Positions 1,182-55,833 of a stretch of DNA of 64,000 nt are shown one piece after another. The translations under genes were made by a program, and so were the position numbers. The stretch spans positions 236,354 through 300,353 of the forward strand of contig JBDRTY010000001.1 of the NCBI GenBank assembly GCA_039801085.1, written 5' to 3'. Source of the DNA: a candidate division WOR-3 bacterium. GTDB lineage: Bacteria; Hydrothermota; Tepidihabitantia; Tepidihabitantales; Tepidihabitantaceae. The notes below the pieces were generated by a model. The model was not told the origin of the DNA and made no database searches. It worked only from the letters and a program-made list of their open reading frames with translations. The first letter of the stretch is position 1. Each line of letters opens with the position of its first letter.

Positions 1182-1215
1182 GGGTCTATTTTAAATGATT
1201 CAATTCAGAATGCAA
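1182..1215 (-). promoter_or_regulatory. sigma70-like leaderless promoter of purF
   Basis: TTGCAT-16nt-TAAAAT-6nt-GTG; no Shine-Dalgarno sequence. Confidence 0.6.
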
Positions 1216-1221
1216 ATTTAG

Positions 1222-2472
1222 TTAATCACGCAGTCTGATGTCAAGGTACGGGATTTTCAACCGTTTTGCCATCCCGGGAGAAACGGTTAATGCCATGCCC
1301 GAACCGATTACCTCACTGCCCATGCGTCTTTTTAATAAATCGACTGCCCGATAAAGTCGTTCCATTTTTTCCAAGCGGAGCGGATCGTCAAAGAGTGTAA
1401 TTTGACTGTTACGGGTAGAGACCAGTCGAGTCAGAATGACGCCGGTTTGCCGGTAAACCTTCCCGGGTTGATAGATCGCATCAAACCCCTGTTGAATAAA
1501 TGGAGCTAATAGAAGCGGATACGCTGTTGGTGCGGACAGCTTCAATTCCACTGCGCTTTCCTGAAATTCCTGGGTGCGGAGAAACAGAATCAGACGCTGA
1601 GGTGCCAGCTGATAGCGCCGGGCTTTGAAGCAGGCGGCTTCAAGATTGGCGCTGAGCCTGCTGAAGATCGCAAACCGGCTGGTGGTCGGTGGGAATGTCG
1701 TTGCCTTGCTGATTGACTGGTAGTTGTTCTTGGGTTCGGGATTTACCGGATATACCGGTCGGCCGTTTAGTTCCTGCCAGATTTCGTAGCAGGGTTTAGG
1801 GAGGTGTTTATGGATAAACATTTCGGACCGGCGGGCGAGGTCCAGTGCAGTTCTGATGCCTAGTTTATTACACCAGGCAGCGGTACTGGTTCCGATTCCC
1901 CAGACCGCATCCACGGGCAATTTTTCCAGATACAGGTGAATCTGTCGTCCCGGGATTACTGTCAGGCCCCCGGGTTTTCTGTGCTGAGAGGCGATCTTAG
2001 CGAGAACTTTAGTGAGGCTGATGCCGATGGAAACCGAGATGCCCAGTTCTGTCCGGATTGTTTCCTGAATCCGGAAGCCCAGTTCCTCATAGGAGCAGTG
2101 ATAGGCCCGGCGCAGGCCGGTAATGTCCACAAACGCTTCATCAATTGAGTATTCTTCGACCGCTGGAGAAAATCGGCGGAGAATATCCATCATCCGGATC
2201 GAAAACAGACTGTATTTTTCATAATCGGAGTTAAGAACAATTACCGCTGGATAAAGGTGTTTCACATCCCGGATCCGCATGCCCCGTTTGATACCAAGCA
2301 CCTTGGCTTCATAACTGGCAGCAGTAACAATTCCCCGCTCTCTGCCGACGATCAGCGGTTTACCGGCAAGGTGGGGATTGGTTGCCTGCTCACAGGCAGC
2401 AAAGAAGGCGTCGGCATCTACATGCAGAATCGCATTTTGCCAGTCAAAGACCAGGAGTGGCTGGGTGCTCAT
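1222..2472 (-). CDS. Y-family error-prone DNA polymerase (DinB/UmuC-like)
   Basis: ILHVDADAFFA and YSIDEAFVD catalytic motifs, IMS C-terminal little-finger region. Start moved to the ATG at 2472 (ATGA overlap with the upstream stop); the ORF-track extension to 2607 lies inside lexA. Confidence 0.93.
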   Translation of the reverse strand: MSTQPLLVFDWQNAILHVDADAFFAACEQATNPHLAGKPLIVGRERGIVTAASYEAKVLGIKRGMRIRDVKHLYPAVIVLNSDYEKYSLFSIRMMDILRRFSPAVEEYSIDEAFVDITGLRRAYHCSYEELGFRIQETIRTELGISVSIGISLTKVLAKIASQHRKPGGLTVIPGRQIHLYLEKLPVDAVWGIGTSTAAWCNKLGIRTALDLARRSEMFIHKHLPKPCYEIWQELNGRPVYPVNPEPKNNYQSISKATTFPPTTSRFAIFSRLSANLEAACFKARRYQLAPQRLILFLRTQEFQESAVELKLSAPTAYPLLLAPFIQQGFDAIYQPGKVYRQTGVILTRLVSTRNSQITLFDDPLRLEKMERLYRAVDLLKRRMGSEVIGSGMALTVSPGMAKRLKIPYLDIRLRD

Positions 2473-3053
2473 CGGTATTTCCGGATTACGGCGGTAACCA
2501 CCCCACCGATTCGGAGTTCTGCTCTGGGCTTCAAAGGCGGGTAGTTCGGATTTGCGGGGACGAGGATAATCTGTCCTCCCTGTTTTCTTAAGTACTTGAT
2601 CGTCCATTCACCATCAACCTCAGCAATCACGATATCGCCATTCTTGGGGGTGATTGAGCGGTCGATCAGAACCATGTCTCCCGGGAGAATGCCGGCTTCC
2701 CGCATTGAATTGCCGGTGACCTTCAAGAGGAAGGTAGCGGCTGAGTTGCGTATCAGCCATTCATCAAGTGAAATTTTGTCCAGAAGTTCCTCCTCGGCAG
2801 GGGAGGGAAAGCCGGCTTCAACGGTTCCGAGCAGTTTCAGGGGTGAAAGCAGTTTCTGAGGGATAAGCCTACCTTTTTCATCCTGAGTGATGATCCCCTG
2901 TGCCTTCAGTTTCTTCACCAGCCGGAAAACCGCATTTTTGGAACGCCAGCCAAAGAGCTGCGCAATTTCAGTGTAAGACGGCATCCGGCACCGCTGCCGG
3001 TAGAACTGCCGGAGCTGTTCAATTTTATTGTTCAAGTCAGCACTTCGCCTCAT
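2469..3053 (-). CDS. lexA: LexA-family repressor with UmuD-like S24 peptidase domain
   Basis: N-terminal winged HTH (MPSYTEIAQLFGWRSKNAVFRLVKKL), Ala-Gly cleavage site in EAGFPSPA, catalytic Ser (GNSM) and Lys (WTIKYL). Confidence 0.88.
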   Translation of the reverse strand: MRRSADLNNKIEQLRQFYRQRCRMPSYTEIAQLFGWRSKNAVFRLVKKLKAQGIITQDEKGRLIPQKLLSPLKLLGTVEAGFPSPAEEELLDKISLDEWLIRNSAATFLLKVTGNSMREAGILPGDMVLIDRSITPKNGDIVIAEVDGEWTIKYLRKQGGQIILVPANPNYPPLKPRAELRIGGVVTAVIRKYR

Positions 3054-3088
3054 GAATTAATTATAGTGAACGATTGTTCACTTGTCAA
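3054..3088 (-). promoter_or_regulatory. Consensus sigma70 promoter of the lexA-polymerase cassette (leaderless)
   Basis: TTGACA (3088-3083)-17nt-TATAAT (3065-3060)-6nt-ATG (3053). Confidence 0.9.
3065..3082. promoter_or_regulatory. LexA operator (SOS box) AGTGAAC-GATT-GTTCACT
   Basis: Perfect inverted repeat with 7-bp arms and a GAAC-N4-GTTC core, filling the promoter spacer. Confidence 0.85.
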
Positions 3089-3095
3089 GCAATCT

Positions 3096-3980
3096 TTAGT
3101 TGTCGATGCCCCGGCCTTCAAAGTCCGGGGTGTAGTCGGAGGAAGCGGAGGAAAGTTCCTGCAGAAAACCTTCTTCAAAACCGAGGTCCAGAAAGTAATC
3201 CCTGATCTCCTGATACTCGGAGGGACGGAGGCGCCGGTTCATATCCGGCAGAGTTTCTGCCTGATAGGTCGGATAATACTGTGCCATCAGACTGATCTGG
3301 GTCTGGGGTCCGAGATTGTCCCGGAGCCAGCGGAGGATTTTCTTGGAGTCTTCAATCTGTCCCGGCAGGACGAGATGGCGGACAATCAGCCCCTGTTTAA
3401 TAATTCCCTCCTCGTCGTAGCGGTTTTCTCCAACCTGCCGTTTCATTTCCATGATTGCTGCGGAGGCGTATTTAAAATAGTTCGGTGCGGAGGAGAACTG
3501 CTGTGCCAGTTCGTCGGAAAAATACTTCAGATCAGGAAGATAGATCGAGACCAGACCTCCCAGTTGCCGCAGGGTTTCCACCTTTTCATAGGCGTTGGAG
3601 TTCCAGAGGATGGGAATCCGTAACCGCTGTCTCGCCGCCTCGAGTACCGGGATCAGCTGCAGGGTATAGTGGGTCGGGGTTACGAGGTTGATGTTGTGGG
3701 CACCCTGATTTTCAAGCTGGAGCATGATTTCGACTAAACGCTCCGGTTGCACCTTTCTGCCGAATCCCAGCTGGGAGATATCGTAGTTCTGACAGAAACG
3801 GCAGCGGAGATTGCAGTGGGAAAAGAAGATCGTTCCTGATCCTCTGGTGCCGGATACCGGAGGTTCCTCCCAGAAATGGAGCTGTGCCTGAGCAATTTCA
3901 ATTTCATCGGTTGCCCGGCACCGGCCCGGATGGACCGAGCGGTCAATATTACATTCAAACGGACAGGCGTTGCAGATCAT
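3096..3980 (-). CDS. Radical SAM protein, PflX / PFL-activase-like
   Basis: CNLRCRFC cluster motif, N-terminal CxxCPxxC, GLIVRHLVLPG. The ATG at 3980 is preferred; the TTG at 4016 in the ORF track is the -35 hexamer. Confidence 0.85.
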   Translation of the reverse strand: MICNACPFECNIDRSVHPGRCRATDEIEIAQAQLHFWEEPPVSGTRGSGTIFFSHCNLRCRFCQNYDISQLGFGRKVQPERLVEIMLQLENQGAHNINLVTPTHYTLQLIPVLEAARQRLRIPILWNSNAYEKVETLRQLGGLVSIYLPDLKYFSDELAQQFSSAPNYFKYASAAIMEMKRQVGENRYDEEGIIKQGLIVRHLVLPGQIEDSKKILRWLRDNLGPQTQISLMAQYYPTYQAETLPDMNRRLRPSEYQEIRDYFLDLGFEEGFLQELSSASSDYTPDFEGRGIDN

Positions 3981-4016
3981 GCTTATAATTCTACTTCCCG
4001 AAGGAGGCGGTATCAA
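3981..4016 (-). promoter_or_regulatory. Leaderless promoter of the radical SAM gene
   Basis: TTGATA-17nt-TAGAAT-7nt-ATG. Confidence 0.7.
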
Positions 4017-4070
4017 CTCCGGGTTGGTGCTTGTGATTAGGCGGGCAGGGCAGTGAAACCAGTTTCTGTC

Positions 4071-4104
4071 TTGACCCGGAGCGGAGGCGATTTAGAATAT
4101 CCTG
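4071..4104 (+). promoter_or_regulatory. Leaderless promoter of uvrB
   Basis: TTGACC-16nt-TAGAAT-6nt-ATG; no Shine-Dalgarno sequence next to the start. Confidence 0.7.
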
Positions 4105-6132
4105 ATGCAGGAGCGGTTCCGGTTGAGAGCGCCTTTCCAGCCCGCCGGTGACCAGCCGGAGGCGATTGAGCGGCTGGTTGAATTTATTCAGTCGGGAGCG
4201 AAATATTCCACCCTGCTGGGGGTCACCGGATCGGGCAAGACCTTTGTCATGGCATCAGTAATCGCCCGGCTTAACCGGCCGACGATTGTCATCTCCCATA
4301 ACAAGACACTGGCAGCTCAGCTGTATGGCGAGTTCAGACAGTTCTTTCCGGATAATGCGGTGGAGTACTTCATCTCCTATTATGACTATTACCAGCCTGA
4401 GGCCTATGTGCCGGAACATGACCTTTACATTGAAAAGGACGCCTCTATTAACGAGGAGATTGAGCGGCTCCGCTTACGTGCCACCTCCAGCCTGATTGAG
4501 CGCCGGGATGTGATCGTGGTCGCCTCAGTTTCCTGTATCTATAACCTCGGCGAACCCTGGGAGTTCCGAGAGTCGCTTTTTCCGATTGAACTGAATCGGG
4601 AGCTGGACCGGGAACAGTTACTGGAACAGCTGGTAAAACTGCAATATACCAGAAACGATTTTGAGCCCAAGCGGTCAACCTTCCGGGTCCGGGGTGAGGT
4701 AGTGGAGGTTCACCCTTCGCACCGGGATTACGGGGTGCGGATTGAGTTCCAGGAGGACCGGATTGCCCGGCTGAGTATCTTTGACATTGTATCCGGCGAA
4801 CTGATTGAGCGCCGGGAGCGGGTGGTAATCTATCCGGCACGCCATTTCATTACCGGTAAGGAGCGGATTGAGCGGGCAATCAGATCAATTGAGGCCGAAC
4901 TCCGGCAACGGGTGGCGGAGCTGGAGGCACAGGGAAAATTCCTAGAGGCGCAGCGGCTCAGAACCAGAACCAGATTTGATCTCGAGATGATTCAGGAGTT
5001 CGGCTACTGTCCCGGAATTGAGAATTACTCCCGGCATCTTCTGGGCAAGGCGCCGGGCGAGCGGCCTTACTGCCTTCTGGACTATTTTCCGGCTGACTAC
5101 CTGATGTTCATTGATGAGTCCCATCAGACCGTTCCCCAGATCCAGGGGATGTATAATGGTGACCGGTCAAGAAAGCAGGTGCTGGTCGATTACGGATTCC
5201 GACTGCCCTCCTGTCTGGACAACCGGCCGCTGCGTTTTGACGAGTTTGAGACTCTGATCAATCAGGTGGTCTTTACTTCGGCGACACCGGGAGATTATGA
5301 GCTGGAGCGGAGTCAGGGCCAGGTTGCCGAGCTGATTGTCCGGCCCACCGGACTGGTGGATCCGAAGATGACCATCCGGTCGACCGCCAATCAGGTGGAT
5401 GATCTGCTGAATGAAATCCGGCAGCGGGTGGAGCGCCAGGAGCGGGTGCTGGTGACGACACTAACCAAGCGTATGGCCGAGGACCTAGCGGAGTATCTGA
5501 CTGAGCTGGGCATCCGGGTAAGGTATCTCCATTCCGAGATTGAGCCGCTGGAGCGGGTGGAGATTCTGCGTGGACTGCGGCTCGGCGAATTTGATGTGCT
5601 GGTCGGGATTAACCTTTTGCGTGAAGGGCTTGATCTGCCGGAGGTGTCCTTAGTGGCGGTGCTGGATGCAGACAAGGAGGGGTTTCTGCGTGATGCCCGT
5701 TCCTTGATTCAGACCGCGGGCCGGGCGGCAAGAAATGTCCGGGGCGAGGTAATTCTATATGCCGATAACATCACCCGTTCCATCCGGAATGCCCTTGCTG
5801 AGACCGAGCGGCGGCGGCAGAAGCAGATTGAGTATAACCGCCGGCACGGCATCATTCCCCGCTCAATTGAAAAGACGACGGAACAGGTGCTGGGTACAAC
5901 CGCGGTTGCCGATGCCCGGGATGCAGAAGAGGCGGAAAATAACTGGCAGGTCGCTGAAGATGGAGGCCGAATGGAACTGCTGCTCCGGCTGGAAAAGGAG
6001 ATGCAGCAGGCGGCTCAGAATCTGGAGTTTGAGCGGGCAGCAAAGCTGCGGGACAGAATCCGTGAGCTCCGGCAGCAGATTGATGATGAAGAGTGGCGAA
6101 AAAGCCGGCGCAAACGGCTGAAAAACCGGTGA
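4105..6132 (+). CDS. uvrB: Excinuclease ABC subunit B
   Basis: GVTGSGKT Walker [27 protein letters not shown]-terminal UVR domain. Confidence 0.99.
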
Positions 6133-6168
6133 GGCGTAAGGGTTACCCTTAAAAACAATCCGGCTCAA

Positions 6169-7952
6169 TTAAGGGAGCAGCAGTTCAAAGTAATGAGTTA
6201 TATCACCAGGTGTGGCAGCAAGGCCTATTGCCACCACTCTGTCTTCAGTCAGCCGTAAAAGATAATAGGTGGCGGTTGCTTTTACCACCTGTCGTGGTAG
6301 CAGGAATCGCTCTGTTGTTCTTTTCTGACGGTGGATTTTATAGACCAGAGGTTGTCTGTTATTATTAATGGTAACTAGGACATAGATGCAGCTGCCGGTA
6401 TCAAGAAAATCCACAATCCGCTGGGGGAAGTTGGTGCGCAGTGTTTCAAGCATATAGCGCAGCGGTTCACTGGAGCGGTCAATCTCCGGGGTAACCGGTA
6501 CCGGATTTTCCCAGATCAATACCGAGTCCTCCAATTCAAATTCCTGGTTGAAGATCATAATTTTCCCCGAATAACGATCGGTAGTGTAGGAGCGGTTGTT
6601 CTGTCTGCGGACAAAGGCTTCGCTACCCACGAGATACCCAAGCCGCAGTTCCTCAAACCTGGGATCAAGCCCGCCGATAAAACGGATAAATCTGCCACCG
6701 GTATCATAAACTGCCAGCTGGTGGATGTTCTTGAGATAAAATTCCTCCCGGAAAGGATTCCAGTCCGCGGGCAGGTTTTCATCAAGCATTTCCGAACCCT
6801 GGGCAGGCCAGCCCCGGCAGTAAGGCAGAAACACAATTCCCGTTTCGGAAATGAGGGAGGCATCGGGATGTTCAAAAACGTCGGGAATGGTGTCAGGCCA
6901 GGGTTGAAATTCCACGCACCGTAACATCTGATTGGAATTTATGTTTTTGGTGATCATGACCGGTGCATTGAAGTAGTCAATCTGTACATTCTCGCCTTTG
7001 TCTCTCATCTGAATGCTGGGCAGGGGGGCGGTGATTATTAGCAGGGAATCATCAAGAAACCGGTGACTGAAATACATGGAATTGATAATATTCATTGCCT
7101 TGAGTTTAAGCACAAGCTCTGCCGGCAGACGGATGAAGAGCACCTCTTCCGAACTGTCGGGATAAAGCGCACGCAGCAGCTTTCCAGTTAGAAGATCAAA
7201 GACATAAACATGGGAGGTCATATGGTCGGTAAACGCCAGACGGGTACCGGCGGGATTGAGCGAAAGATAATACGTGCTAGAAATCGGATGTTCATCTGTG
7301 TCCCGAAGTCTTATCCTCCGCCGGAATTGCGGCTTCAGTCTTTTCTCCGGCACCCTTTTTTCTGAAACAGCGACTGCTTTGCTAGCAACTCTCGGGTGGG
7401 AGCTGTCGGCGATGAACTGGGCAACTAAGATGGAGTCAATCCGGCAGCTCAGCGTGCAGGATGAGATCAGCTCCCCGGTTGAGATTTTGAATTTGGTAAC
7501 AAAAGGTACCTGGAGAGTACCGGCGGAAAATTAAAAGTTTCTGAGGAAGTTTTCGTCAACCACCAGAGTATAGTCGGCATTAAAACTCCGGCGCTGGAGA
7601 TAGCGTTCTGCCGCACGGCGGTGATTGGAGACCGCCAGCAAAATGATGTCGTTTTTTACTCCCTGGGCCCGGAGGAGATCGGTAAATGGTTTGATCCCTC
7701 CTTCAATCCGGGCAGCGATCATCGGTGGAACTAAAAAACATACACCGTATCTGATTTGTAGTTAATTCCGAGTTTCTGGAAAAAGCGGTGGATTTCACGA
7801 TTGGTACCTTCAATCTGCGCCATCTGGTGAAGCTGGAGAACCGGATTGAAAACGGAACCGAATAGATAAACAGAGGTTACAAGTATGAGCACAAGGGCAG
7901 GGGCAGTGATTTTACCGCCCCTGCCCGCATGTACCACTGATTTACAGTCCAT
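6169..7952 (-). pseudogene. Disrupted ~594-aa membrane-anchored protein (possible thioredoxin-like N-part plus beta-propeller-like C-part)
   Basis: ORFs 7731-7952, 7531-7722 and 6169-7353 join into one frame by adding one base to the A6 run at 7733-7738 and reading through the in-frame TAA at 7531-7533 (7530 to 7353 is 59 open codons). Confidence 0.65.
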
Positions 7953-7964
7953 GTCCGGGTTACT

Positions 7965-8295
7965 CTATCGTTCTATCGGAACAATCTCCACGACCTTCAG
8001 TTCGTCACCGTAAACCGGAGTTCCATCAAGCGGCAAAGGAGCACCCAGACGGATACGATAACGCTGCCCTGAACTCGGATCCGTACCCGTTAATTCAAGA
8101 AGGGTATCAGGGGATGCATTAAAGGGAAGGGTAATCTCAAGACAGACAATGGAATCTCTGACGGGACAGATCCGAGGAGGAATAACTGTTACCCCCCAGA
8201 ACCATAGAGCTTGATACTGGCAGCGGTAAATGCAGGAATCAGGAGAAAAAGAAGCCCGAGGAAGAGAATACGCAGGTTCGTTAATTTTTAAGCAT
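7965..8295 (-). pseudogene. Disrupted ~110-aa secreted protein
   Basis: AGGAGG precedes ATG 8295, which stops after MLKN. Adding one base to the run at 8285-8289 and one to the run at 8192-8197 restores MLKKLTNLRILFLGLLFLLIPAFTA (signal peptide) in frame with the ORF ending at 7965. Confidence 0.6.
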
Positions 8296-8377
8296 CCTTT
8301 TCCTCCTTTCACAGCCGGAGTTCTTTCCCGACTGCGACTAAATTATAATTATACTACTACTTGTCAACAAATTTAAT

Positions 8378-9478
8378 TTATTTTCTCATTCTCAGCCAGA
8401 AACTGTGTAGGTGGCCGGCGATCGTCATTGCCTTTACCGGGCAGATTTCTGAGCAGCAGAAGCAGCGGATGCATTTGCGACGGTCGATTTCGGGCAAGGG
8501 ACTCATTCTGATCGCCTCTACCGGACAGTTCCGGGCACATTCAGCACAACGGATGCAGCGGTTGTGGTTCAGGACCGGCACGCGGGGGATAATCAGCCGG
8601 TACACCGGCCGGGATAGGCGGGTGATCAGACTGGCGAATCCGGCACCGGGCAGGCGGAACCCGGGAATGGGTGCAAAGTCACCGTGGATCTGAATTGCAG
8701 TCCGGGCTGCCGGTCCGAGCCTGCGACTGGCAGCGATGCGCACGGTCGGGATGGAGTCCGGCTGGGCACCGGCAAGCATCGCCATGACCGCATCCAGGGC
8801 AATACCGTTTTCACTGGCGAGCAGCAGATCCATCTTCCGCACCCTGCCGCCACTCGGTCCGTTGATTCCGTCCATGACCCGGATACCATCCATGATATGG
8901 AGCATTTTTACCGGCACCGTCTGATAGATGTCCACGAGCAGTTCGGCAAACTGTTCGGCACTGGCAGCCAAGGTGTGGAGATACGCCTTGTGCCCGCCGG
9001 GAATGATGCCGAAGATGTTTTTGACCGCACCGGTGAGCAGGGTCAGGGCATGGGTTTTGAATACCGGCAGATTGAGGATGATATCAACTTCGTGAATCAG
9101 GCTGGAGACCGGAATTTCTGGGGTATAGCGGGATGAAAGCGGCAGTTGCACCGGGTTGATTGAGACATTCTGAAAACAGCCCTGACTGGCTTCAATCATA
9201 CCAGTCGGCTTCAGATAGTCTTCAATCCGGTTCCGGCGGGCGCCGGCCGGATTGTCACCGACGATTATCCTTTTGGCGTTGCGCCGTTTGAGCTCGGAGA
9301 TGATCCCATGAACCAGCTCCGGATTGGTGGTAACCCCGGCTTCGGGGGGGTGGGGTGCGAGCAGGTTGGGTTTGACCCAGATCCGTTTGCCGGAGAAGTC
9401 ATAATTAAGAAAGTCAAGCGCCTCAATGACCGTTGCTTGCAGGTCGCCAATTTTCCGGATGAGTACCGAGGCGGGCAT
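8378..9478 (-). CDS. DUF362 domain protein with C-terminal 2x[4Fe-4S] ferredoxin
   Basis: WVKPNLL, VTTNPELV, LPVFKTH, LTGAVKNIFG; CIRCAECARNCP and CIRCFCCSEICP. Confidence 0.85.
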   Translation of the reverse strand: MPASVLIRKIGDLQATVIEALDFLNYDFSGKRIWVKPNLLAPHPPEAGVTTNPELVHGIISELKRRNAKRIIVGDNPAGARRNRIEDYLKPTGMIEASQGCFQNVSINPVQLPLSSRYTPEIPVSSLIHEVDIILNLPVFKTHALTLLTGAVKNIFGIIPGGHKAYLHTLAASAEQFAELLVDIYQTVPVKMLHIMDGIRVMDGINGPSGGRVRKMDLLLASENGIALDAVMAMLAGAQPDSIPTVRIAASRRLGPAARTAIQIHGDFAPIPGFRLPGAGFASLITRLSRPVYRLIIPRVPVLNHNRCIRCAECARNCPVEAIRMSPLPEIDRRKCIRCFCCSEICPVKAMTIAGHLHSFWLRMRK

Positions 9479-9496
9479 TAAGCAGTCGGCAGGGTG

Positions 9497-9688
9497 CTAC
9501 TTGTTATCTTGACCCGGGATGATATAAAGGACATTGGCAAGGGATACCACCGCTTCAGGCTGCCGCTCCCTGCCTTCAGGAATTCCGGTTTCCTTGAAAA
9601 TCACATCCACCATCTTGACGACACCTTCCTTGACGGTGTAACCACCACAAACCGCATAGCCGCCGGATTTGAGATAGACAATCGGCAT
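9497..9688 (-). CDS. Small hypothetical protein (63 aa), possible Sm/LSm-like fold
   Basis: Good RBS (AAGGAG), tightly packed in the operon, beta-rich pattern. Confidence 0.7.
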   Translation of the reverse strand: MPIVYLKSGGYAVCGGYTVKEGVVKMVDVIFKETGIPEGRERQPEAVVSLANVLYIIPGQDNK

Positions 9689-9700
9689 TTTTTCTCCTTT

Positions 9701-10903
9701 CTACATCTCGGGTCGGGGCAGGCTGACCCGAGACGGTTTTTCCTCCCGGAAACCTAGGGCAAAGTCCGCCTGCAGCAGTTTGTGAATCTCCCTGCTCCCC
9801 TCATAAATCTGGGCACCCTTGGCATTCCGGTAGAAGCGTTCTACCGGATATTCGTCGGAAAAGCCGTAGGCACCGAGGGTTTGAACCGCATTACTTGCTG
9901 CCCGTTCGGCCGCCTCACAGGCAAAAAGTTTTGCCGCTGAGGTGGCGCGGGTGGCGGTCCGGCCCTGATTTTTCTCCCAGCCGGCGCGGAGATAGAGCAG
10001 TCTTGCAGCCTGATAGCTGACTGCCATGTCAGCGATCATATCCTTGACAAGCTGATGTTCTGCGAGCGGTTTCCCGAAGCTGCTGCGGGTAAGGGCGTAG
10101 CCGGAAGCCACATCAAGGCAGGCACGGATCAGACCGGCGGCTCCGGCAGCAACGGTGTAGCGGCCCTGGTCAATTGCAAACATGGCGATCCTGAAACCCT
10201 CGTTCTCCCGACCGAGACGGTTGGCTTCCGGGACCCGGACATCGCTCAGGGAAATGGAGCCGGTATTGCCCGCCCGGACGCCGAGTTTGTGATGGATGGT
10301 TGAAGTGGACAGTCCGGCCATGCCCCGTTCGAGGATAAAGGCGGTGATGCCGGTGTGGTCACGCCGCTGCTGTTTTTCCCGGTCAGTCCAGGCAAAAACA
10401 AGGAAGTGGTCGGCGATATCCGCAAGTGAAATCCATGTTTTCTCGCCGTTCAGGATGTAGCAGTTGCCATCCCGGCGTGCGGTCGCCCGGATACCCAGAA
10501 CATCGGAGCCGGCATCCGGTTCGGTCAGACCGAAGGCGGCAAGTTTCTCACCCTTTGCCTGCGGGATCAGGTATCTCTTTTTCTGCGCTTCATCGCCCCA
10601 TGCCAGCAGGGTCAGGCTGACAAGGCCGATATGGACCGAAATGATTACCCGCAGTGAGGTATCAACATACTCCAGCTCCTCACAGGTAAGACCCAGACTG
10701 ATATAGTCACCACCGCTTCCACCCCAGACGGCGGGAATGGTCAGGCCAAGCAGACCCAGCTCCGCCATCTTCCGGGCGATCCGCGGGTCAAAGAACTGGT
10801 TGCGGTCGTTTTCCTGAATTCTGGGTTGAACCTCGTTGCGGGCAAACTCCCGGGCGAGTTTCTGCACGAGCTGCTGTTCTTCGGTGAAGGTGAAGTCGAT
10901 CAC
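9701..10903 (-). CDS. Acyl-CoA dehydrogenase family protein
   Basis: AFGLTEPDAGSD, LNGEKTWIS, QIYEGSREIH; GTG start overlaps the purB stop. Confidence 0.93.
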   Translation of the reverse strand: MIDFTFTEEQQLVQKLAREFARNEVQPRIQENDRNQFFDPRIARKMAELGLLGLTIPAVWGGSGGDYISLGLTCEELEYVDTSLRVIISVHIGLVSLTLLAWGDEAQKKRYLIPQAKGEKLAAFGLTEPDAGSDVLGIRATARRDGNCYILNGEKTWISLADIADHFLVFAWTDREKQQRRDHTGITAFILERGMAGLSTSTIHHKLGVRAGNTGSISLSDVRVPEANRLGRENEGFRIAMFAIDQGRYTVAAGAAGLIRACLDVASGYALTRSSFGKPLAEHQLVKDMIADMAVSYQAARLLYLRAGWEKNQGRTATRATSAAKLFACEAAERAASNAVQTLGAYGFSDEYPVERFYRNAKGAQIYEGSREIHKLLQADFALGFREEKPSRVSLPRPEM

Positions 10904-12195
10904 TTTCTGCCCAGTACCCGGCGGTAGACCGCATCCACATGCCGGACCAGATTCCGCAGTTGGAACACTGCCTCCAACTCAGACGGACTGAGATGGTGCT
11001 GCACGGTGCGGTCATTTCTGGCGAGCTGGCTCAGGGTTGTGCCCGAGCTGATTGCTTCGAATGACAGTTTCTGCACCAGTCTGTAGGCACGGGTGCGGTT
11101 CATACCCTTGTTTACCAGTGCCAGCAGCAGTGCCTGCGAGAAGAAGGTCTCACCGGAGATTTTCAGGTTTTTCTCCATCTGGTCAGGTCTGACCACCAGT
11201 CCGGCGAGGACCCGGTTCATCTGCCGGAGACAGTAGTGGAGGAGGGTAAAGGCCTCGGGAATGATAATCCGCTCGGCGGCAGAGTTGGTCAGATCCCGCT
11301 CGTGCCAGAGGGGGATGTTCTCGTAGCTGGCTAAGGCGTAGGAACGGATTACCCGGGCAAGGGAACAAACTCTTTCGCAGATGATCGGATTTTTCTTATG
11401 GGGCATTGCTGAAGATCCCGCCTGAGATTTGCCAAACGGTTCACTTACCTCCCCGATTTCGGTCCGCTGAAGGTTGCGGATCTCAGTAGCGATCCTTTCT
11501 AGCCCGGCAGCGATCAGTGCCAGCATCGAGAGGAGAAAGGCATGCCGGTCGCGCGGGATCACCTGGGTGGACACCGACTCGACCTTCAGATTAAGCAGTT
11601 TCAAAACCCTTTTTTCCACATCCGGGCTGAGCTGGGTATAGGCGCCGACGGTGCCGGAGATCTTGCCGTAGCCGATTTCCATCCGGGCGAGTTTGATCCG
11701 TTCAATACCCCGATTGATTTCCGCCAGCCAGGACAGGCATTTCAACCCGAAGGTAATCGGTTCTGCATGGACGCCGTGGGTTCTGCCGATCATCGGGGTC
11801 CAGTGGTAGCGGCGGGCAAGATCGGCGGTGGTCTTCTGGAGCTCGAGTAGTGCTGTGTGGATTATATCCAGCGCCTGAACGCAGCGAATCGCCAGGGCGG
11901 TGTCAACCACATCGTAAGAGGTAAGTCCGTAATGGACATACTTGCCTGCCTCGCCGGCACTTTTTGCCACGCTGCGGGTGAAGGCGATCACATCGTGGTT
12001 GGTTTCCTTTTCAAAACGTTCAATCTCACTGATTTTAAAAGTTGCCTGCTGGATTTTTTCTGCTGCCGGCTTCGGGATAATACCCAGTTCACCCTCGACC
12101 TTTGCCACTGCTTTCTCCACGAGCAGCCAGGTCTGAAACTTTGCCTCTTCAGACCAGAGCTGAGCCATTTCCGGTGTCAGGTAGCGGGAGGTCAT
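10900..12195 (-). CDS. purB: Adenylosuccinate lyase
   Basis: GSSAMPHKKNP fumarate-lyase signature, HYGLTSYDVVDT, GRTHGVHAEP. Confidence 0.97.
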   Translation of the reverse strand: MTSRYLTPEMAQLWSEEAKFQTWLLVEKAVAKVEGELGIIPKPAAEKIQQATFKISEIERFEKETNHDVIAFTRSVAKSAGEAGKYVHYGLTSYDVVDTALAIRCVQALDIIHTALLELQKTTADLARRYHWTPMIGRTHGVHAEPITFGLKCLSWLAEINRGIERIKLARMEIGYGKISGTVGAYTQLSPDVEKRVLKLLNLKVESVSTQVIPRDRHAFLLSMLALIAAGLERIATEIRNLQRTEIGEVSEPFGKSQAGSSAMPHKKNPIICERVCSLARVIRSYALASYENIPLWHERDLTNSAAERIIIPEAFTLLHYCLRQMNRVLAGLVVRPDQMEKNLKISGETFFSQALLLALVNKGMNRTRAYRLVQKLSFEAISSGTTLSQLARNDRTVQHHLSPSELEAVFQLRNLVRHVDAVYRRVLGRK

Positions 12196-12200
12196 AAATA

Positions 12201-13331: not shown

Positions 13332-13366
13332 CAGATTAGTTTAACCGGCAATTGGAGTAAGGTCAA
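13332..13366 (-). promoter_or_regulatory. Leaderless promoter of the htrA-purB operon
   Basis: TTGACC-17nt-TAAACT-6nt-ATG. Confidence 0.75.
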
Positions 13367-13379
13367 GTCTTGCCGGTAC

Positions 13380-13408
13380 TTGACAGGGGAAGAAGACAGA
13401 TTTATAAT
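13380..13408 (+). promoter_or_regulatory. Consensus sigma70 promoter for the secreted-protein genes
   Basis: TTGACA-17nt-TATAAT, followed by a ~80-nt leader with AAGGAGG before ATG 13496. Confidence 0.85.
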
Positions 13409-16411: not shown

Positions 16412-16439
16412 TGGCAGAGAAAGTTGAGGGAGGTTCAAG

Positions 16440-52246: not shown

Positions 52247-52769
52247 TTTTTTGCTCCTTCTTTTTTCTCGATTTTAATCCTCCGATGAATTCATAAAGTA
52301 GGATCAGGATTACGCCGGTTACTACAAAGGCATCCGCCAGATTAAATGTAAACCAGCGGAATCCGAGTGAACGGATTTCAAAGTCAATGAAATCGATGAC
52401 ATGACCCAGCCGTACCCGGTCCACGAGATTACCCAACGCACCGCCCAGAATAATGCCATAGGCACAGCCGAGATAGGTGCTACGGGTCTTTAATGCCAGC
52501 AGCAGTACCAATATAATCCCGGTGAGCTGCAACAGGTAATGGAGCCAGACCGCGCCGAATGATATCCCGAATACCCCGAAGGGGTTGGTATTATAGGAAA
52601 TTTTAAGCAGATCACCTATTATCCGGATTGAAACGGGTGCTGCCGGCCTGTTGAAAATCCCGTAGACAAGATTTTTTGTTATCTGGTCAGCAAACAAAGC
52701 CAGAATGCTGGTCCAGACAAAAGAACGACCCAGCACCGGTGTGCAGCGGACGGGTTCTGAATTGGACAT
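52161..52769 (-). CDS. lspA: Lipoprotein signal peptidase (signal peptidase II)
   Basis: DQITK, GGALGNLVDR, VIDFID, FNLAD; the C-terminal tail overlaps iscS by 86 nt. Confidence 0.92.
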   Translation of the reverse strand: MSNSEPVRCTPVLGRSFVWTSILALFADQITKNLVYGIFNRPAAPVSIRIIGDLLKISYNTNPFGVFGISFGAVWLHYLLQLTGIILVLLLALKTRSTYLGCAYGIILGGALGNLVDRVRLGHVIDFIDFEIRSLGFRWFTFNLADAFVVTGVILILLYEFIGGLKSRKKKEQKNENACLSGQQLNHPDRSAGQGSNCTLPD

Positions 52770-53719
52770 CAGGATGTCTTTTCTGCGGCAGCAATAAGCT
52801 GGTCGAGCTGATCAGGGGGATAAACTCGGATATGATAGTGCTGGGCAAACTGTTGTGCTTCGGGGCTTAATGCGGTCCCGGCGATCAGAATAATATCCTG
52901 CGCACCGACATCATATGCCTTGGCATAAAGCTTTATTACTTCCTCGGCCGGTATTTCGGTCGCCCCGGCGGCAAATCCGATAACGACTTGGTGTTCCAGC
53001 GGACCGGATCGCTTGACCGCGAGAATGTCAATCAAATGTCTTGCTCCAGACCGGCCCGATACAGTAACCGCTTCCCGAACATCATACCCTTCCTGAGTTA
53101 GCAGGTTCTTTACCCGGCTCCGGGGTATCCTTTCCTCCTGTATCTTTTTCAACTGTTCAGGATTAACACAATATTTATAGAGCACAAGTTCGCGTACACC
53201 ATTTTTTTCATACAGCTGACTGCATCCGCTGCAGTGCCAGCGTTCTACCGGGGACCGGGTTAATTCGCGGCAGTGAGGGCACCGGTACCGGTAACCCAGA
53301 TCTTCATAATCACTGCCCAGCAGCAGCAATTCATCACGGCATTTCGGACAGACCCTCCGGTTATAGCGAAGAAAATCATCCGCCGGTCCGGAATAACCGC
53401 AAGTTCGATGTTTTAATACTCTGGTGCGAAGAATTTCCGGAGAGTGGCACTTGGGACAGAAAAAAACAAGCTTCAGCCGATCGGCATTACATCGTGGACA
53501 AAGAAATATTCTTTCCGCGAACTGGCGTTCCAAATATCCGAGCCGGGAGAGATCCTCGAGAAGCTGGACCGCAGCTTGAGCATCGATTTTCAGGTGTGAT
53601 TCTACGAGTGGATAGCTGATGCCCTCAGGGGTATGAGGAGCAAAGACCGGTTCCAGCGATCGGTCCGGTTTTTCTGTCAGCAGTTCAAAAAGTTTCAGCA
53701 GGTTGCTGTCAGTTTCCAT
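52769..53719 (-). CDS. Multi-zinc-ribbon (TackOD1-like) protein with C-terminal Mrr-like restriction-endonuclease fold
   Basis: CPRC, CPKC, HxxC, CPKC, CPHC, CSGC; C-terminal GRSGARHLIDILA...VIKLYAKAYDVG...ALSPEAQQFA. Confidence 0.6.
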   Translation of the reverse strand: METDSNLLKLFELLTEKPDRSLEPVFAPHTPEGISYPLVESHLKIDAQAAVQLLEDLSRLGYLERQFAERIFLCPRCNADRLKLVFFCPKCHSPEILRTRVLKHRTCGYSGPADDFLRYNRRVCPKCRDELLLLGSDYEDLGYRYRCPHCRELTRSPVERWHCSGCSQLYEKNGVRELVLYKYCVNPEQLKKIQEERIPRSRVKNLLTQEGYDVREAVTVSGRSGARHLIDILAVKRSGPLEHQVVIGFAAGATEIPAEEVIKLYAKAYDVGAQDIILIAGTALSPEAQQFAQHYHIRVYPPDQLDQLIAAAEKTS

Positions 53720-53739: not shown

Positions 53740-53767
53740 ATTATAAACTTAATTTCACCTCAGTCAA
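53740..53767 (-). promoter_or_regulatory. Promoter of the zinc-ribbon/lspA/iscS operon
   Basis: TTGACT-16nt-TATAAT, then AAGGAG before ATG 53719. Confidence 0.7.
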
Positions 53768-53781
53768 ATAAGTTTGCTCGA

Positions 53782-53817
53782 TTGACAATTGCGATTTTGA
53801 TGTTTAACTTTAAAACT
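53782..53817 (+). promoter_or_regulatory. Leaderless promoter of the Na/Pi transporter gene
   Basis: TTGACA-17nt-TAACTT-7nt-GTG (53818). Confidence 0.65.
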
Positions 53818-55833
53818 GTGCAGAGTTTTATTGTACTCATCGCAATTCTGTTTGCTGTTGTTAGTGGGAAAGCTTTTCCCGGCTATCAATTAAAATTTGC
53901 TACCGTGGGAGATGAGGATATTTCCGGTAATAATCAGGTGGGAGAGACCGGAAGTGATTTGCCCCGCTGCTTGGCACTGCAGGTTTTAGACCGGGGGAAA
54001 CCTGTTGTCCATATTCCGGTGCATTTTTCCATTTTAAGCGAACCGGTAGAAAACAGTTACCCGGGTAATTTCCGTGCCCGGCTTTCAGACACCGTTGTTT
54101 ATACCGATCAGCTTGGTATCGCCCGGACGAGACTGAGACTGGGAAGTAATACTGGTGAATATCTGATTAAAGGAGAAACGGCGGGCAGTGAACTGGTGTT
54201 TGTGATCCGGGGGTTGAAACATCGCTGGTATCTCGGGACAATTCTGGAAATTATCGGCGGGACAGCAATTTTTCTCTTCGGTTTGTATTACGGTTCAAAA
54301 GGGTTAAGGCGACTGGCAGGTGATAGACTGCGGCAGGTCCTTTTTGCACTGATTCCCAACCGGCTACTCGGGGTCTTAGTGGGAATTATTGTCACCGCAA
54401 TTTTCCAGTCCTCCAGCGCCACGGTCGGGCTTTTAATGTCGCTTGCCTCTTCCGGACTGATTACGGTGGGACAATCACTGGGGGTCATTCTGGGGGCTGA
54501 TATCGGTACAACAATTACAATCCAGCTGCTTTCATTCCGGATATACGAATACGCCCTTTTTGCTGTGGCAGTCGGATTGCTTTTAATGAATTCAAGCTGG
54601 CGGCTGAAGGATATCGGTCAGGTAATTTTCGGATTCGGGCTGGTATTTTTTTCCATGAAGATGGTTCTGAGTGCAGTGGAACCGGTAAAGTATCTGCCCC
54701 AATTTCAGGCGTTTTTCCGTGCGGGCACTATGCATCCTTTCTACTCGTTCGTGCTGGCACTGGTTTTTACCGCACTCGTGCGTTCTTCGGCAGCGACGAT
54801 CGGAATGACGGTCGGACTGTCTTTTTCGGGAATAATCGGGCTGGAAAGTGCAATTCCTTTGATCCTGGGGGCGAACGTTGGCAGCGGTTTAACAGCACTG
54901 GTTACAGCATGGAATACCAAGTCTGCAGGCAGACGGGTGGCGCTCGCCCAGCTCCTGTTTAAATTGATTACTACCCTGATGATTATTCCGGTAATCCCAC
55001 CAGCCACAGTTTTTTTCTCCCGGACCTCGCCAATCACTGCCCGGCAGATTGCCAATGCCCATACACTGATCAACATAGCGGCAGCAGTGATTTTTCTTCC
55101 GTTACTTGGCATCATCGAGAAACTGCTGGAGGTGATTATTCCGGAGCAGGCGGATACTGAAGCGGGTCCACGGTATCTTGATACCGCAGCGCTTGATAGT
55201 CCGGAACTGGCACTGGCACAGGGGACCCGGGAAATACTGAGAATGGGAGAGATGGTGCAGAATATGCTGGAAAAGTCACTGCTCTTTTTCCTGGAGAATG
55301 ATAAAGAAGGCTGTCGCTGGTTGGCATTGGAGGATGACCGGGTCGACCGGCTCGAAGAAGAGCTGATGGTTTTTTTATCAAAGATTCCTCCGGAATCACA
55401 GAATCCGGAGACATCAAAACGTACGCGGACACTGTTCTATATAACTGAGGAGCTGGAACATATTGCGGACATTGTTTCCAAAAACATGGTGGTATACATC
55501 AGAAAAAGGATAAACCACAACCTGGCTTTTTCTCCTGCTGGTCTGGAAGAGATCAAGAATTTTCACCAGCAAGTTCTGAAAAACCTGACAATGGCACTTG
55601 GCTGCATTGCCACCTGGGATGGAAAGATGGCACAGCAGTTAGCAGAAAAAAGGGTTTGGGGCATCGAGAGAAAACAGGAATTGCAAAACCGTCACCTTGA
55701 AAGGCTGGCACTCGGTTTAAAGGAAACTTTGGATACTTCCTCGATTCACCTGGATTTGATTTCGGATCTCGAAAGAATCAATTTCCACTGTAGCCAGATA
55801 GGTGCTGCAATAGCAAGTGTTGCAGAAGGCTAA
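53818..55833 (+). CDS. Na+/Pi cotransporter family protein with N-terminal Ig-like domain and PhoU-like C-terminal domains
   Basis: FQSSSAT and VRSSAAT repeats, LGADIGTT, LGANVGS, AHTLIN; PhoU-like helical repeats. GTG 53818 gives a signal peptide. Confidence 0.88.
   Translation: MQSFIVLIAILFAVVSGKAFPGYQLKFATVGDEDISGNNQVGETGSDLPRCLALQVLDRGKPVVHIPVHFSILSEPVENSYPGNFRARLSDTVVYTDQLGIARTRLRLGSNTGEYLIKGETAGSELVFVIRGLKHRWYLGTILEIIGGTAIFLFGLYYGSKGLRRLAGDRLRQVLFALIPNRLLGVLVGIIVTAIFQSSSATVGLLMSLASSGLITVGQSLGVILGADIGTTITIQLLSFRIYEYALFAVAVGLLLMNSSWRLKDIGQVIFGFGLVFFSMKMVLSAVEPVKYLPQFQAFFRAGTMHPFYSFVLALVFTALVRSSAATIGMTVGLSFSGIIGLESAIPLILGANVGSGLTALVTAWNTKSAGRRVALAQLLFKLITTLMIIPVIPPATVFFSRTSPITARQIANAHTLINIAAAVIFLPLLGIIEKLLEVIIPEQADTEAGPRYLDTAALDSPELALAQGTREILRMGEMVQNMLEKSLLFFLENDKEGCRWLALEDDRVDRLEEELMVFLSKIPPESQNPETSKRTRTLFYITEELEHIADIVSKNMVVYIRKRINHNLAFSPAGLEEIKNFHQQVLKNLTMALGCIATWDGKMAQQLAEKRVWGIERKQELQNRHLERLALGLKETLDTSSIHLDLISDLERINFHCSQIGAAIASVAEG

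What the first reader, a model, noticed from the sequence alone, without database searches (positions are those of the whole stretch)
1182..53820. Pervasive leaderless gene architecture: -10 box 5-7 nt before the start codon
Nine genes show TANNNT 5-7 nt before the start with no Shine-Dalgarno sequence, eight of them with a TTG-type -35 at 16-17 nt: purF (TTGCAT-16-TAAAAT-6-GTG), lexA (TTGACA-17-TATAAT-6), radical SAM (TTGATA-17-TAGAAT-7), uvrB (TTGACC-16-TAGAAT-6), htrA (TTGACC-17-TAAACT-6), C25 protease (TTGACT-16-TATAAT-5), patatin (TATAAT-5, no clear -35), mnmG (TTGACA-17-TAAAAT-5-GTG) and Na/Pi (TTGACA-17-TAACTT-7-GTG). Other operon leaders (13496, 53719, 56161, 57627) use strong SD sequences. 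Leaderless mRNA is well known in Actinomycetota, Deinococcus and archaea; such a high share in this lineage may be undescribed. It also corrects several ORF-track starts that are really -35 hexamers.
Basis: partly seen in the sequence, partly recalled or inferred. Interest (0 to 1): 0.65.

Follow-up and report, generated by a model that had tools for sequence, protein, structure and literature searches.

The report
Leaderless-type promoters in a WOR-3 bacterium
In this uncultured hot-spring bacterium (candidate division WOR-3), about a quarter of transcription units have a complete promoter ending 6 bases before the start codon, so their mRNAs most likely have no leader or ribosome-binding site; this layout is well known in other bacteria but I found no report of it for WOR-3.

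Summary
All nine promoter/start layouts are at the stated coordinates. One correction: mnmG starts at ATG 28444, 8 nt after the -10 box, not at GTG 28447.

The pattern holds across the 1.91-Mb genome. TTGNNN-16..18-TANNNT is followed by an ATG/GTG opening a long ORF with a sharp peak 6 nt downstream. About 185 genes exceed background (11% of genes):
- about 28% of divergently transcribed first genes
- about 1% of operon-internal genes

Further points:
- The excess exists for ATG and GTG but not TTG.
- It occurs only with a TTG-type -35.
- Coding potential rises exactly at these starts.
- PurF's catalytic Cys directly follows the start codon.
- Orthologous purF and mnmG genes keep the layout across the family.
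- SD-led genes and a canonical anti-SD coexist with it.

This matches a known type, the mixed leaderless/SD genome (GeneMarkS-2 "group C"; Zheng 2011 "TA-led" genes). The lineage is candidate division WOR-3, for which I found no report.

Caveats:
- "Pervasive" overstates the genome-wide share; it is about half of units in this window.
- Public gene calls already use 11 of the 12 starts looked up.

Verdict: a new member of a known kind, of modest interest.

The parts
1179..1215 (-). purF leaderless-type promoter and start: -35 TTGCAT 1215..1210, -10 TAAAAT 1193..1188, 6-nt gap, GTG 1181..1179
   Evidence: The start is fixed by the Ntn nucleophile Cys directly after the initiator (V/M-C-G-V). 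The layout is kept in all six family-f1 genomes recovered (five relatives plus own).
3051..3088 (-). lexA promoter and start: -35 TTGACA 3088..3083, -10 TATAAT 3065..3060, 6-nt gap, ATG 3053..3051. The spacer holds a GAAC-N4-GTTC palindrome.
   Evidence: 12/12 consensus match. The public call is the same 194-aa protein. The upstream region is identical in four other assemblies.
3978..4016 (-). Radical-SAM gene promoter and start: -35 TTGATA 4016..4011 (its TTG is the longest-ORF 'start'), -10 TAGAAT 3993..3988, 7-nt gap, ATG 3980..3978
   Evidence: The public call is the 294-aa ATG form; the 306-aa TTG form is not in the collection.
4071..4107 (+). uvrB promoter and start: -35 TTGACC 4071..4076, -10 TAGAAT 4093..4098, 6-nt gap, ATG 4105. 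It lies back to back with the radical-SAM promoter in a 124-nt divergent gap.
   Evidence: The N-terminus aligns from residue 1-5 with UvrB of many phyla. Same public call.
13329..13366 (-). htrA-like protease promoter and start: -35 TTGACC 13366..13361, -10 TAAACT 13343..13338, 6-nt gap, ATG 13331..13329
   Evidence: Same 376-aa public call.
21234..21269 (-). C25 (gingipain-like) gene promoter and start: -35 TTGACT 21269..21264, -10 TATAAT 21247..21242, 5-nt gap, ATG 21236..21234
   Evidence: Same 497-aa public call.
23693..23706 (+). Patatin-POTRA-Omp85 gene: -10 TATAAT 23693..23698, 5-nt gap, ATG 23704. No clear -35. The longest-ORF TTG (23698) overlaps the -10.
   Evidence: The public call is the 721-aa ATG form.
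28442..28481 (-). mnmG promoter and start: -35 TTGACA 28481..28476, -10 TAAAAT 28458..28453; GTG 28447 (5 nt) and ATG 28444 (8 nt). ATG is the likely start.
   Evidence: Orthologues keep -35/-10 and start 5-10 nt downstream; CTG or TTA replaces the GTG. The public call is the 630-aa ATG form.
28510..28549 (+). Additional candidate, PorV/PorQ-like gene: -35 TTGACA 28510..28515, -10 TAAAAT 28532..28537, 9-nt gap, ATG 28547 (leader of 0-3 nt). It is divergent from mnmG across a 99-nt gap.
   Evidence: Same 272-aa public call.
37665..37706 (+). Additional candidate, 4Fe-4S gene. Two readings: TTGACT 37665..37670 -16- TATCAT 37687..37692 -11- ATG 37704, or TTGTAG-16-TATTTT-6-ATG. The longest-ORF TTG (37665) is the -35.
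   Evidence: The public call is the 130-aa ATG form; the TTG form is absent.
53782..53820 (+). Na/Pi cotransporter promoter and start: -35 TTGACA 53782..53787 (an in-frame TTG), -10 TAACTT 53805..53810, 7-nt gap, GTG 53818
   Evidence: The public call is the 671-aa GTG form; the 700-aa TTG form is absent.
13380..13498 (+). Contrast case, a leadered SD-type unit: TTGACA-17-TATAAT (13380..13408), a leader of about 80 nt, then TAAGGAGG and ATG 13496
57610..57629 (+). Contrast case: AAAGGAGGAGTT-ATG 57627 (strong SD). 53719 (-) and 56161 (+) are similar.

Best explanation
**Organism.** This is a thermophile-associated member of candidate division WOR-3. Its genome is 1.9 Mb with 53% GC.

**Proposed mechanism.** The primary sigma-70-type RNA polymerase holoenzyme recognises ordinary promoters: TTGAC(A/T/C), a 16-17 nt spacer, then TAnnnT. 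For about 180 genes these promoters are placed so that the canonical +1 position, 7 nt after the -10 hexamer, is the A or G of the start codon.
- The transcripts would therefore begin at, or 1-3 nt before, AUG/GUG and carry no Shine-Dalgarno site.
- By analogy with mycobacteria, Deinococcus and Thermus, they would be translated by direct binding of a ribosome with initiator tRNA to the 5'-terminal start codon.
- The remaining genes use a classical SD paired to an intact anti-SD. These are all operon-internal genes and roughly three quarters of first genes.

**Shown here, from sequence:**
- the geometry of the promoters relative to start codons
- their genome-wide enrichment
- restriction to first genes of transcription units
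- dependence on a purine-initial start codon (ATG/GTG, not TTG)
- dependence on a -35 element
- correct start codons
- conservation at orthologous genes

**Inferred, not shown:**
- the actual transcription start sites
- the mode of translation
For: 1. **Promoter-anchored profile.** After TTGNNN-16..18-TANNNT, ATG/GTG codons opening ORFs of 100 codons or more number 37, 94, 54, 39 and 44 at 5-9 nt. The background is about 16 per offset. The peak is at 6 nt for both 16- and 17-nt spacers.
2. **Gene-anchored count.** 260 genes carry the pattern against about 76 at control offsets.
3. **Genomic context.** Background-corrected shares are:
   - 28% of divergent first genes
   - 27% of co-directional genes with a 40-99 nt gap
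   - 3% of co-directional genes with a gap of 100 nt or more
   - 1% with gaps under 40 nt
4. **Start codon.** The excess is +134 for ATG, +46 for GTG, +3 for TTG and none for CTG. TTG makes up 7-14% of SD-led starts.
5. **-35 element.** All of the excess lies in -10 boxes with a TTG -35 (+185). There is none without one.
6. **Coding potential.** The in-frame coding score jumps from -0.53 to +0.25/+0.37 exactly at these starts, as it does at strong-SD starts.
7. **purF.** The catalytic Cys1 directly follows the start codon, which fixes the start.
8. **Conservation.** purF and mnmG keep -35/-10/start in all family genomes while the spacer sequence diverges.
9. **Divergent pairs.** 32 divergent pairs have the pattern on both sides. 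Their gaps start at 74 nt and 19 of them are 74-124 nt, about the size of two back-to-back promoters.
10. **Classical initiation coexists.** The SD signal is strong and the 16S rRNA ends ...GATCACCTCCTTTC.
11. **Public gene calls.** Independent public gene calls use 11 of the 12 starts checked.
Against:
- About 76 of the 260 pattern-positive genes are expected by chance, so individual assignments are uncertain.
- 69 pattern-positive genes also have an SD-like candidate start downstream. That is 26.5%, close to the 21% chance rate.
- Sites with 8-9 nt gaps (mnmG, the PorV-like gene) may have 1-3 nt leaders and not be strictly leaderless.
- Gene calls come from my own simple gene finder, not a validated one.
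Confidence: 0.8

Rival explanations
1. The AT-rich TAnnnT element is a non-SD translation signal inside a longer leader, as in Bacteroidota (GeneMarkS-2 group B). The mRNAs would be leadered and transcribed from promoters further upstream.
For: WOR-3 groups near the FCB bacteria (closest UvrB hits), and 90% of FCB genomes were assigned to group B (PMC6028130).
Against: - A translation signal should also precede operon-internal genes, yet only about 1% of those carry it.
- The element occurs only with a TTGAC-type -35 at 16-17 nt.
- TTG starts show no excess.
- In 19 of the 32 divergent pairs with the pattern on both sides the gap is only 74-124 nt, which leaves little room for further upstream promoters.
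- The anti-SD is intact and SD is widely used.
Confidence: 0.06
2. The start codons are mis-assigned. Translation really begins at a downstream codon with an SD, so the promoters give ordinary short leaders that happen to be in frame.
For: 69 of 260 pattern-positive genes have a downstream candidate start with an SD-like match of 5 nt or more.
Against: - The 26.5% rate is close to the 21% found in random internal windows.
- Coding potential rises exactly at the proposed starts.
- PurF needs Cys directly after the initiator.
- The GIDA domain of MnmG begins at residue 8.
- Public gene callers chose the same starts.
Confidence: 0.05
3. The transcripts start a few nucleotides upstream, giving 1-5 nt leaders, and are not exactly at the A/G of the start codon. 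This is a variant of the main explanation and not an opposite of it.
For: A shoulder of sites lies at 7-9 nt. mnmG has 8 nt and the PorV-like gene 9 nt.
Against: The dominant peak is at 6 nt for both spacer classes. The lack of TTG starts argues that the start codon's first base is usually the initiating purine.
Confidence: 0.08
4. Chance co-occurrence of AT-rich hexamers and start codons in intergenic DNA.
For: TANNNT alone is frequent: 32,808 copies, with no detectable excess without a -35.
Against: - There is a 3.4-fold excess over offset controls (binomial p = 3e-19 for this genome).
- The signal is conserved at orthologous genes.
Confidence: 0.01

Closest known systems
GeneMarkS-2 'group C' bacterial genomes (Mycobacterium tuberculosis, Streptomyces, Corynebacterium; Lomsadze et al. 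2018, PMC6028130)
   Same: - A dual start model applies. A Pribnow box sits about 10 nt from the start of first genes in operons, and an SD-type RBS precedes the other genes.
- A predicted 25-50% of transcripts are leaderless. Here the share is about 21-28% of units.
   Different: - The lineage is WOR-3, near the FCB group, where 90% of genomes were group B in that survey.
- GC content is 53%, not high GC.
- The leaderless promoters here carry a strong TTGACA-type -35.
- The share is at the low end of group C.
Deinococcus-Thermus '-10 motif adjacent to ORF' genes (de Groot 2014; PMC12340547, 2025)
   Same: - The -10 box lies a few nt before ATG/GTG with no SD.
- The trait is lineage-wide.
- The organisms are associated with thermophily.
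   Different: - In Deinococcus the -10 motif alone suffices and about 30-40% of ORFs carry it (PMC12340547; PMC3160421).
- Here the whole excess requires a -35, and only about 11% of genes are involved.
'TA-led' leaderless genes of Zheng et al. 2011 (PMC3160421)
   Same: - The signature is identical: TANNNT about 12 nt, counted from its first T, before the start.
- The TAtaaT-type logo is as they describe for medium-GC genomes such as Aquificae.
- Orthologues switch between leaderless and SD-led forms with phylogenetic distance. purF does this here.
   Different: - WOR-3 was not in their data set.
- In their table only 1 of 37 Bacteroidetes/Chlorobi genomes had such genes (2.4%).
Bacteroidota / FCB non-SD initiation (GeneMarkS-2 group B)
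   Same: - It is a phylogenetic neighbour.
- Many genes there lack an SD.
   Different: - In group B one non-SD motif precedes all genes, including internal ones.
- Here the motif is a promoter restricted to first genes, and SD/anti-SD pairing is intact.

Membership tests
Leaderless-rich bacterial genome (GeneMarkS-2 group C / Zheng 'TA-led' genes) | A -10 box (TANNNT) sharply localised so that its end lies about 6-7 nt before the start codon | tested here: met
   The peak is at 6 nt (94 against a background of about 16). The peak is the same for 16- and 17-nt spacers.
Leaderless-rich bacterial genome (GeneMarkS-2 group C / Zheng 'TA-led' genes) | The signal is confined to first genes of operons, while internal genes use an RBS | tested here: met
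   Corrected share is 28% of divergent genes against 1% of genes with an upstream gap under 40 nt. SD classes dominate internal genes.
Leaderless-rich bacterial genome (GeneMarkS-2 group C / Zheng 'TA-led' genes) | A substantial share of transcripts is leaderless (25-50% in group C; more than 20% of genes in the richest phyla) | tested here: inconclusive
   About 185 genes (11%), or 21-28% of transcription units. This is the low end. It is a lower bound because a TTG -35 was required. GeneMarkS-2 itself could not be run.
Leaderless-rich bacterial genome (GeneMarkS-2 group C / Zheng 'TA-led' genes) | Start codons of leaderless genes are AUG or GUG at the mRNA 5' end | tested here: met
   There is an excess for ATG (+134) and GTG (+46) but not TTG (+3) or CTG. 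The 5'-end position itself is inferred.
Leaderless-rich bacterial genome (GeneMarkS-2 group C / Zheng 'TA-led' genes) | Mapped transcription start sites coincide with the start codons | not testable with these tools
The Logan contigs retrieved were DNA assemblies.
Deinococcus-Thermus type (-10 motif alone as promoter) | The -10 motif works without a -35 element | tested here: not met
   The excess is +185 with a TTG -35 and none without. Of the 230 sites at 5-8 nt that carry a TTG -35, 153 have a -35 that reads TTGAC(A/T/C/G).
Bacteroidota-type non-SD initiation (group B) | The same non-SD motif precedes first and internal genes, with a weak or sequestered anti-SD role | tested here: not met
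   The motif is absent from internal genes. GGAGG/AGGAG peaks strongly 4-6 nt before starts. The 16S 3' end is canonical.

The most novel reading that the evidence does not exclude
Leaderless expression from complete -35/-10 promoters may be an ancestral, clade-wide trait of a large part of candidate division WOR-3.
- It is strongest in this genome's class, where the d5-8/d22-25 ratio is 2.6-3.5 in all 11 genomes sampled.
- It is significant in 35 of 61 sampled genomes.
- It appears lost, or replaced by SD-only initiation, in several families.

That would make WOR-3 an undescribed mixed leaderless/SD lineage next to the Bacteroidota, which mostly avoid SD. Back-to-back leaderless promoters of 74-124 nt would serve as the minimal divergent intergenic unit of these streamlined genomes. 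WOR-3 could then be a natural system for studying gains and losses of leaderless initiation.
Probability: 0.55. Interest if true: 0.4.

Novelty: new member of a known kind. Interest (0 to 1): 0.3.

Why it matters
**Practical value.** Gene-start prediction and promoter annotation in WOR-3 genomes should use a dual leaderless/SD model. A naive longest-ORF call mistakes -35 hexamers for TTG starts, as in the radical-SAM, Na/Pi and 4Fe-4S genes here.

**Biological value.**
- It adds an uncultured, thermophile-associated phylum to the list of bacteria with many leaderless genes.
- The trait varies between WOR-3 families, and orthologues such as purF switch to SD leaders. This gives material for studying how translation-initiation modes evolve.

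**Limits.** It does not change the understanding of the mechanism. The same signature has been noted in many other uncultured lineages in this scan.

Tried and rejected
- **RNA evidence.** I tried look-up of encoding contigs on lexA hoping for transcript contigs ending at the start codon. Only DNA metagenome contigs came back.
- **-10 box alone, without a -35.** This shows no usable excess, because 30,597 TANNNT copies and codon periodicity swamp it. Leaderless promoters lacking a TTG -35, such as patatin, therefore cannot be counted, and the total is a lower bound.
- **The d22-25 offset control across the phylum.** It is inflated by real short SD-bearing leaders, especially in AT-rich families. 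The ratios are therefore conservative.
- **ORF-anchored profiles on sampled DNA of two relatives.**
  - G017: 21 against 6 sites, of which 11 against 1 open long ORFs. This supports the trait, but the sample is small.
  - G006 (family f8): no TTGAC-type signal and an SD-dominated upstream logo. Its mnmG still shows TTGGTT-17-TATCAT-7-ATG, so a different -35 consensus may hide some cases there.
- **Extended -10 (TGn).** Not enriched.
- **Second-codon and 5' composition.** No striking difference from SD genes.
- **Rfam and tRNA scans of the window.** Empty, so no riboswitch leaders complicate the picture.
- **SOS boxes at other leaderless promoters.** Only lexA has one.
- **Literature.** Searches for WOR-3 with 'leaderless' or 'Shine-Dalgarno' returned nothing. 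A broader search for leaderless mRNA surveys over GTDB/MAGs found none.

Full report
**What the window is.** The 64-kb window is C1:236354-300353 of a 1.91-Mb, seven-contig genome with 53% GC. MnmG is 93-94% identical to proteins of hot-spring MAGs labelled candidate division WOR-3. Named cluster members of several window proteins are also WOR-3. UvrB is at most 64% identical to anything outside the lineage; its closest hits are FCB-type MAGs. The 16S rRNA gene ends ...GATCACCTCCTTTC, a canonical anti-Shine-Dalgarno tail.

**Checking the observation.** A regex scan and direct reading reproduce all the described layouts:

| Gene | Layout | Start, strand |
|---|---|---|
| purF | TTGCAT-16-TAAAAT-6-GTG | 1181, - |
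| lexA | TTGACA-17-TATAAT-6-ATG | 3053, - |
| radical SAM | TTGATA-17-TAGAAT-7-ATG | 3980, - |
| uvrB | TTGACC-16-TAGAAT-6-ATG | 4105, + |
| htrA | TTGACC-17-TAAACT-6-ATG | 13331, - |
| C25 | TTGACT-16-TATAAT-5-ATG | 21236, - |
| patatin | TATAAT-5-ATG, no -35 | 23704, + |
| mnmG | TTGACA-17-TAAAAT-5-GTG | 28447, - |
| Na/Pi | TTGACA-17-TAACTT-7-GTG | 53818, + |

- Pfam confirms the gene identities.
- The tool's independent promoter scan finds 25 promoter-like sites in 1..20000, against 12.5 +/- 3.8 in shuffles. The promoters of lexA, uvrB, radical SAM, purF and htrA are all among them: lexA scores 12 of 12, uvrB and radical SAM 10 of 12, the purF -10 box and htrA 9 of 12.
- I found three more candidates:
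  - a PorV-like gene at 28547 with a 9-nt gap
  - a 4Fe-4S gene at 37704
  - a solute-binding-protein gene whose start lies just past the window end
- In this window about half of the transcription units are of this type.

**Are the start codons right?**
- PurF is an Ntn amidotransferase whose catalytic Cys must directly follow the initiator. The gene reads GTG-TGT-GGT (V/M-C-G-V), so the start is fixed.
- The GIDA domain of MnmG begins at residue 8.
- UvrB aligns from residues 1-5 with UvrB of many phyla.
- Exact look-ups show that public gene calls use 11 of the 12 starts checked. These are lexA, radical SAM, uvrB, htrA, C25, patatin, Na/Pi, the PorV-like gene, the 4Fe-4S gene and the ATG form of mnmG. 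The longer TTG-start versions are not in the collection.
- The 'corrected starts' are therefore right, but they are corrections only to a naive ORF track.
Orthologues have CTG or TTA in place of the GTG and all start 15 nt before the FDV(I/V)V motif. The public call is the 630-aa form.

**Genome-wide test.** I laid the whole genome and built a simple dicodon gene finder, which called 1,617 genes.
- *Promoter-anchored.* After TTGNNN-16..18-TANNNT, ATG/GTG codons that open ORFs of 100 codons or more number 37, 94, 54, 39 and 44 at 5-9 nt, against about 16 per offset elsewhere.
- *Gene-anchored.* 260 genes have the pattern before a candidate start, against 72-81 at four control offsets. This gives about 185 true cases, or 11% of genes.
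- *Geometry.* The peak is at 6 nt for both 16- and 17-nt spacers. The first base of the start codon therefore sits at the canonical +1.

**Is it a promoter or a translation signal?** Four internal tests all favour a promoter:
1. *Context.* Background-corrected shares are as follows:

| Upstream context | Corrected share |
|---|---|
| divergent first genes | 28% |
| co-directional, 40-99 nt gap | 27% |
| co-directional, gap of 100 nt or more | 3% |
| gap under 40 nt | 1% |

2. *Start codon.* The excess is +134 for ATG, +46 for GTG, +3 for TTG and none for CTG. TTG makes up 7-14% of SD-led starts. This is expected if the start codon's first base is the initiating purine.
3. *-35 dependence.* All of the excess lies in -10 boxes with a TTG -35 (+185), and none without. 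The -35 is mostly TTGACA/T/C and the -10 mostly TAAAAT or TATAAT.
4. *Coding potential.* The in-frame coding score jumps at the proposed starts exactly as at strong-SD starts. The rate of alternative downstream SD-like starts (26.5%) is near the chance rate of 21%.

In addition, 32 divergent pairs have the pattern on both sides. Their gaps begin at 74 nt and 19 lie between 74 and 124 nt, about the size of two back-to-back promoters. Window examples are the radical-SAM/uvrB pair (124 nt) and the mnmG/PorV-like pair (99 nt). Classical initiation coexists: GGAGG/AGGAG peak strongly 4-6 nt before starts.

**Comparative evidence.**
- *mnmG.* All family relatives and many other WOR-3 MAGs keep TTGAC(A/T)-16/17-TA(A/C/G)AAT followed by 5-10 nt and ATG/GTG, while the spacer sequence diverges. 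A few distant genomes have SD leaders instead.
- *purF.* Here the start is unambiguous. All six family-f1 genomes recovered keep -35/-10 and a 6-nt gap. Family f5 has leaders of about 22-25 nt with an SD. Others are intermediate.
- *Phylum scan.* I searched 61 WOR-3 genomes with TTGACN-16..18-TANNNT-5..8-RTG and compared with the same pattern at 22-25 nt:

| Group | Ratio d5-8 / d22-25 |
|---|---|
| this genome | 3.4 (197 vs 58) |
| its family | 2.75-3.4 |
| family f2, same order | 2.6-3.5 |
| family f3, same class | 3.4 |
| f7, f8, f13, f14, f17, f19 | about 1 |

  - 35 of the 61 genomes are enriched at p < 0.001, and 24 have ratios of 2 or more.
- *Sampled DNA.* G017 (f3) gives 21 against 6 sites, of which 11 against 1 open long ORFs. 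G006 (f8) gives no signal and has an SD-dominated upstream logo.
- The trait is therefore lineage-wide in this genome's class and variable across the phylum.

**What could not be done.** The Logan contigs carrying lexA were DNA assemblies. The leaderless reading thus rests on sequence statistics and conservation only.

**Comparison with what is known.**
- TANNNT about 10 nt before the start as the mark of bacterial leaderless genes was described by Zheng et al. 2011 (PMC3160421):
  - 207 of 953 genomes carried it
  - Deinococcus-Thermus averaged 39% of genes, Aquificae 26%, Actinobacteria 19% and delta-proteobacteria 16%
  - Bacteroidetes/Chlorobi had it in 1 of 37 genomes
- GeneMarkS-2 models it as 'group C' (PMC6028130):
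  - 1,028 of 4,769 bacteria fell in this group
  - 25-50% of their transcripts were predicted leaderless
  - 90% of FCB genomes were instead group B
- A 2025 study showed that in Deinococcus-Thermus the -10 motif alone drives such genes (PMC12340547).
- The genome here fits group C at its low end. It differs from Deinococcus in requiring a full -35, and from Bacteroidota-type genomes in keeping SD/anti-SD pairing.
- I found no paper mentioning WOR-3 together with leaderless mRNA or Shine-Dalgarno.
- Notes from this scan report the same signature in many other uncultured lineages, including CPR, SAR86 and Phycisphaerae. Those are unchecked AI notes, but they lowered my estimate of how unusual this is.

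**Verdict.**
- the share is about a quarter of transcription units, not 'pervasive'
- mnmG starts one codon later
- public annotation already uses these starts

This is a new member of a known kind. Confidence that these genes are expressed as leaderless mRNAs, or with leaders of 3 nt or less, is about 0.8. Interest is 0.3.

Noticed in passing
window 3065..3082 (- strand), within the lexA promoter: An 18-nt perfect palindrome, AGTGAACAATCGTTCACT (GAAC-N4-GTTC, Cheo-type SOS box), fills the spacer between -35 and -10 of the lexA promoter, implying autorepression. It is the only such box at a promoter in the genome. The lexA stop overlaps the start of a Y-family polymerase gene (about 2472).
   Followed up: partly
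window 37201..37660: A non-coding gap of about 460 nt, purine- and GC-rich, lies between a methyltransferase-like gene and the 4Fe-4S gene. It has no Rfam match and only short ORFs. The predicted fold is more stable than shuffles (z = -2.7). It may be an unclassified RNA or a degraded gene.
   Followed up: partly
window 26556..26600 (- strand) and 56120..56163 (+ strand): These promoters would put the SD at the very 5' end of the mRNA, giving leaders of about 10-12 nt: TATAAT-cgttAAGGAGcccga-ATG (26555, -) and TATTAT-aattaaAAAGGAGtggcg-ATG (56161, +). This is a second compact layout beside the leaderless one.
   Followed up: no
window 23704..25869 (+): One protein combines patatin-like phospholipase, POTRA and Omp85 domains. 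This is the architecture of PlpD-type (type Vd) autotransporters.
   Followed up: no
window 52769..53719 (-): A protein joins a TackOD1 ('thaumarchaeal output domain 1') to an Mrr-type restriction endonuclease domain. It is an unusual pairing in a bacterial genome, is SD-led, and lies divergent from the Na/Pi gene.
   Followed up: no
window 21395..21450 (+): The unit starting at GTG 21450 has a TATAAT box followed by a GC-rich hairpin (CCCCCGG...CCGGGGG) in its short leader. It is divergent from the leaderless C25 gene and may be a regulatory or pausing structure.
   Followed up: no
Relatives G006, G013, G020, G026, G038, G043 (family f8); G032, G053 (f17); G048 (f19): These WOR-3 families have very few TTGAC-N17-TANNNT sites at all: 18-48 per genome, against about 200 in this genome's family. 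G006 has an SD-dominated upstream logo. Their mnmG promoters read TTGGTT-17-TATCAT, so the promoter consensus may differ within the phylum.
   Followed up: partly
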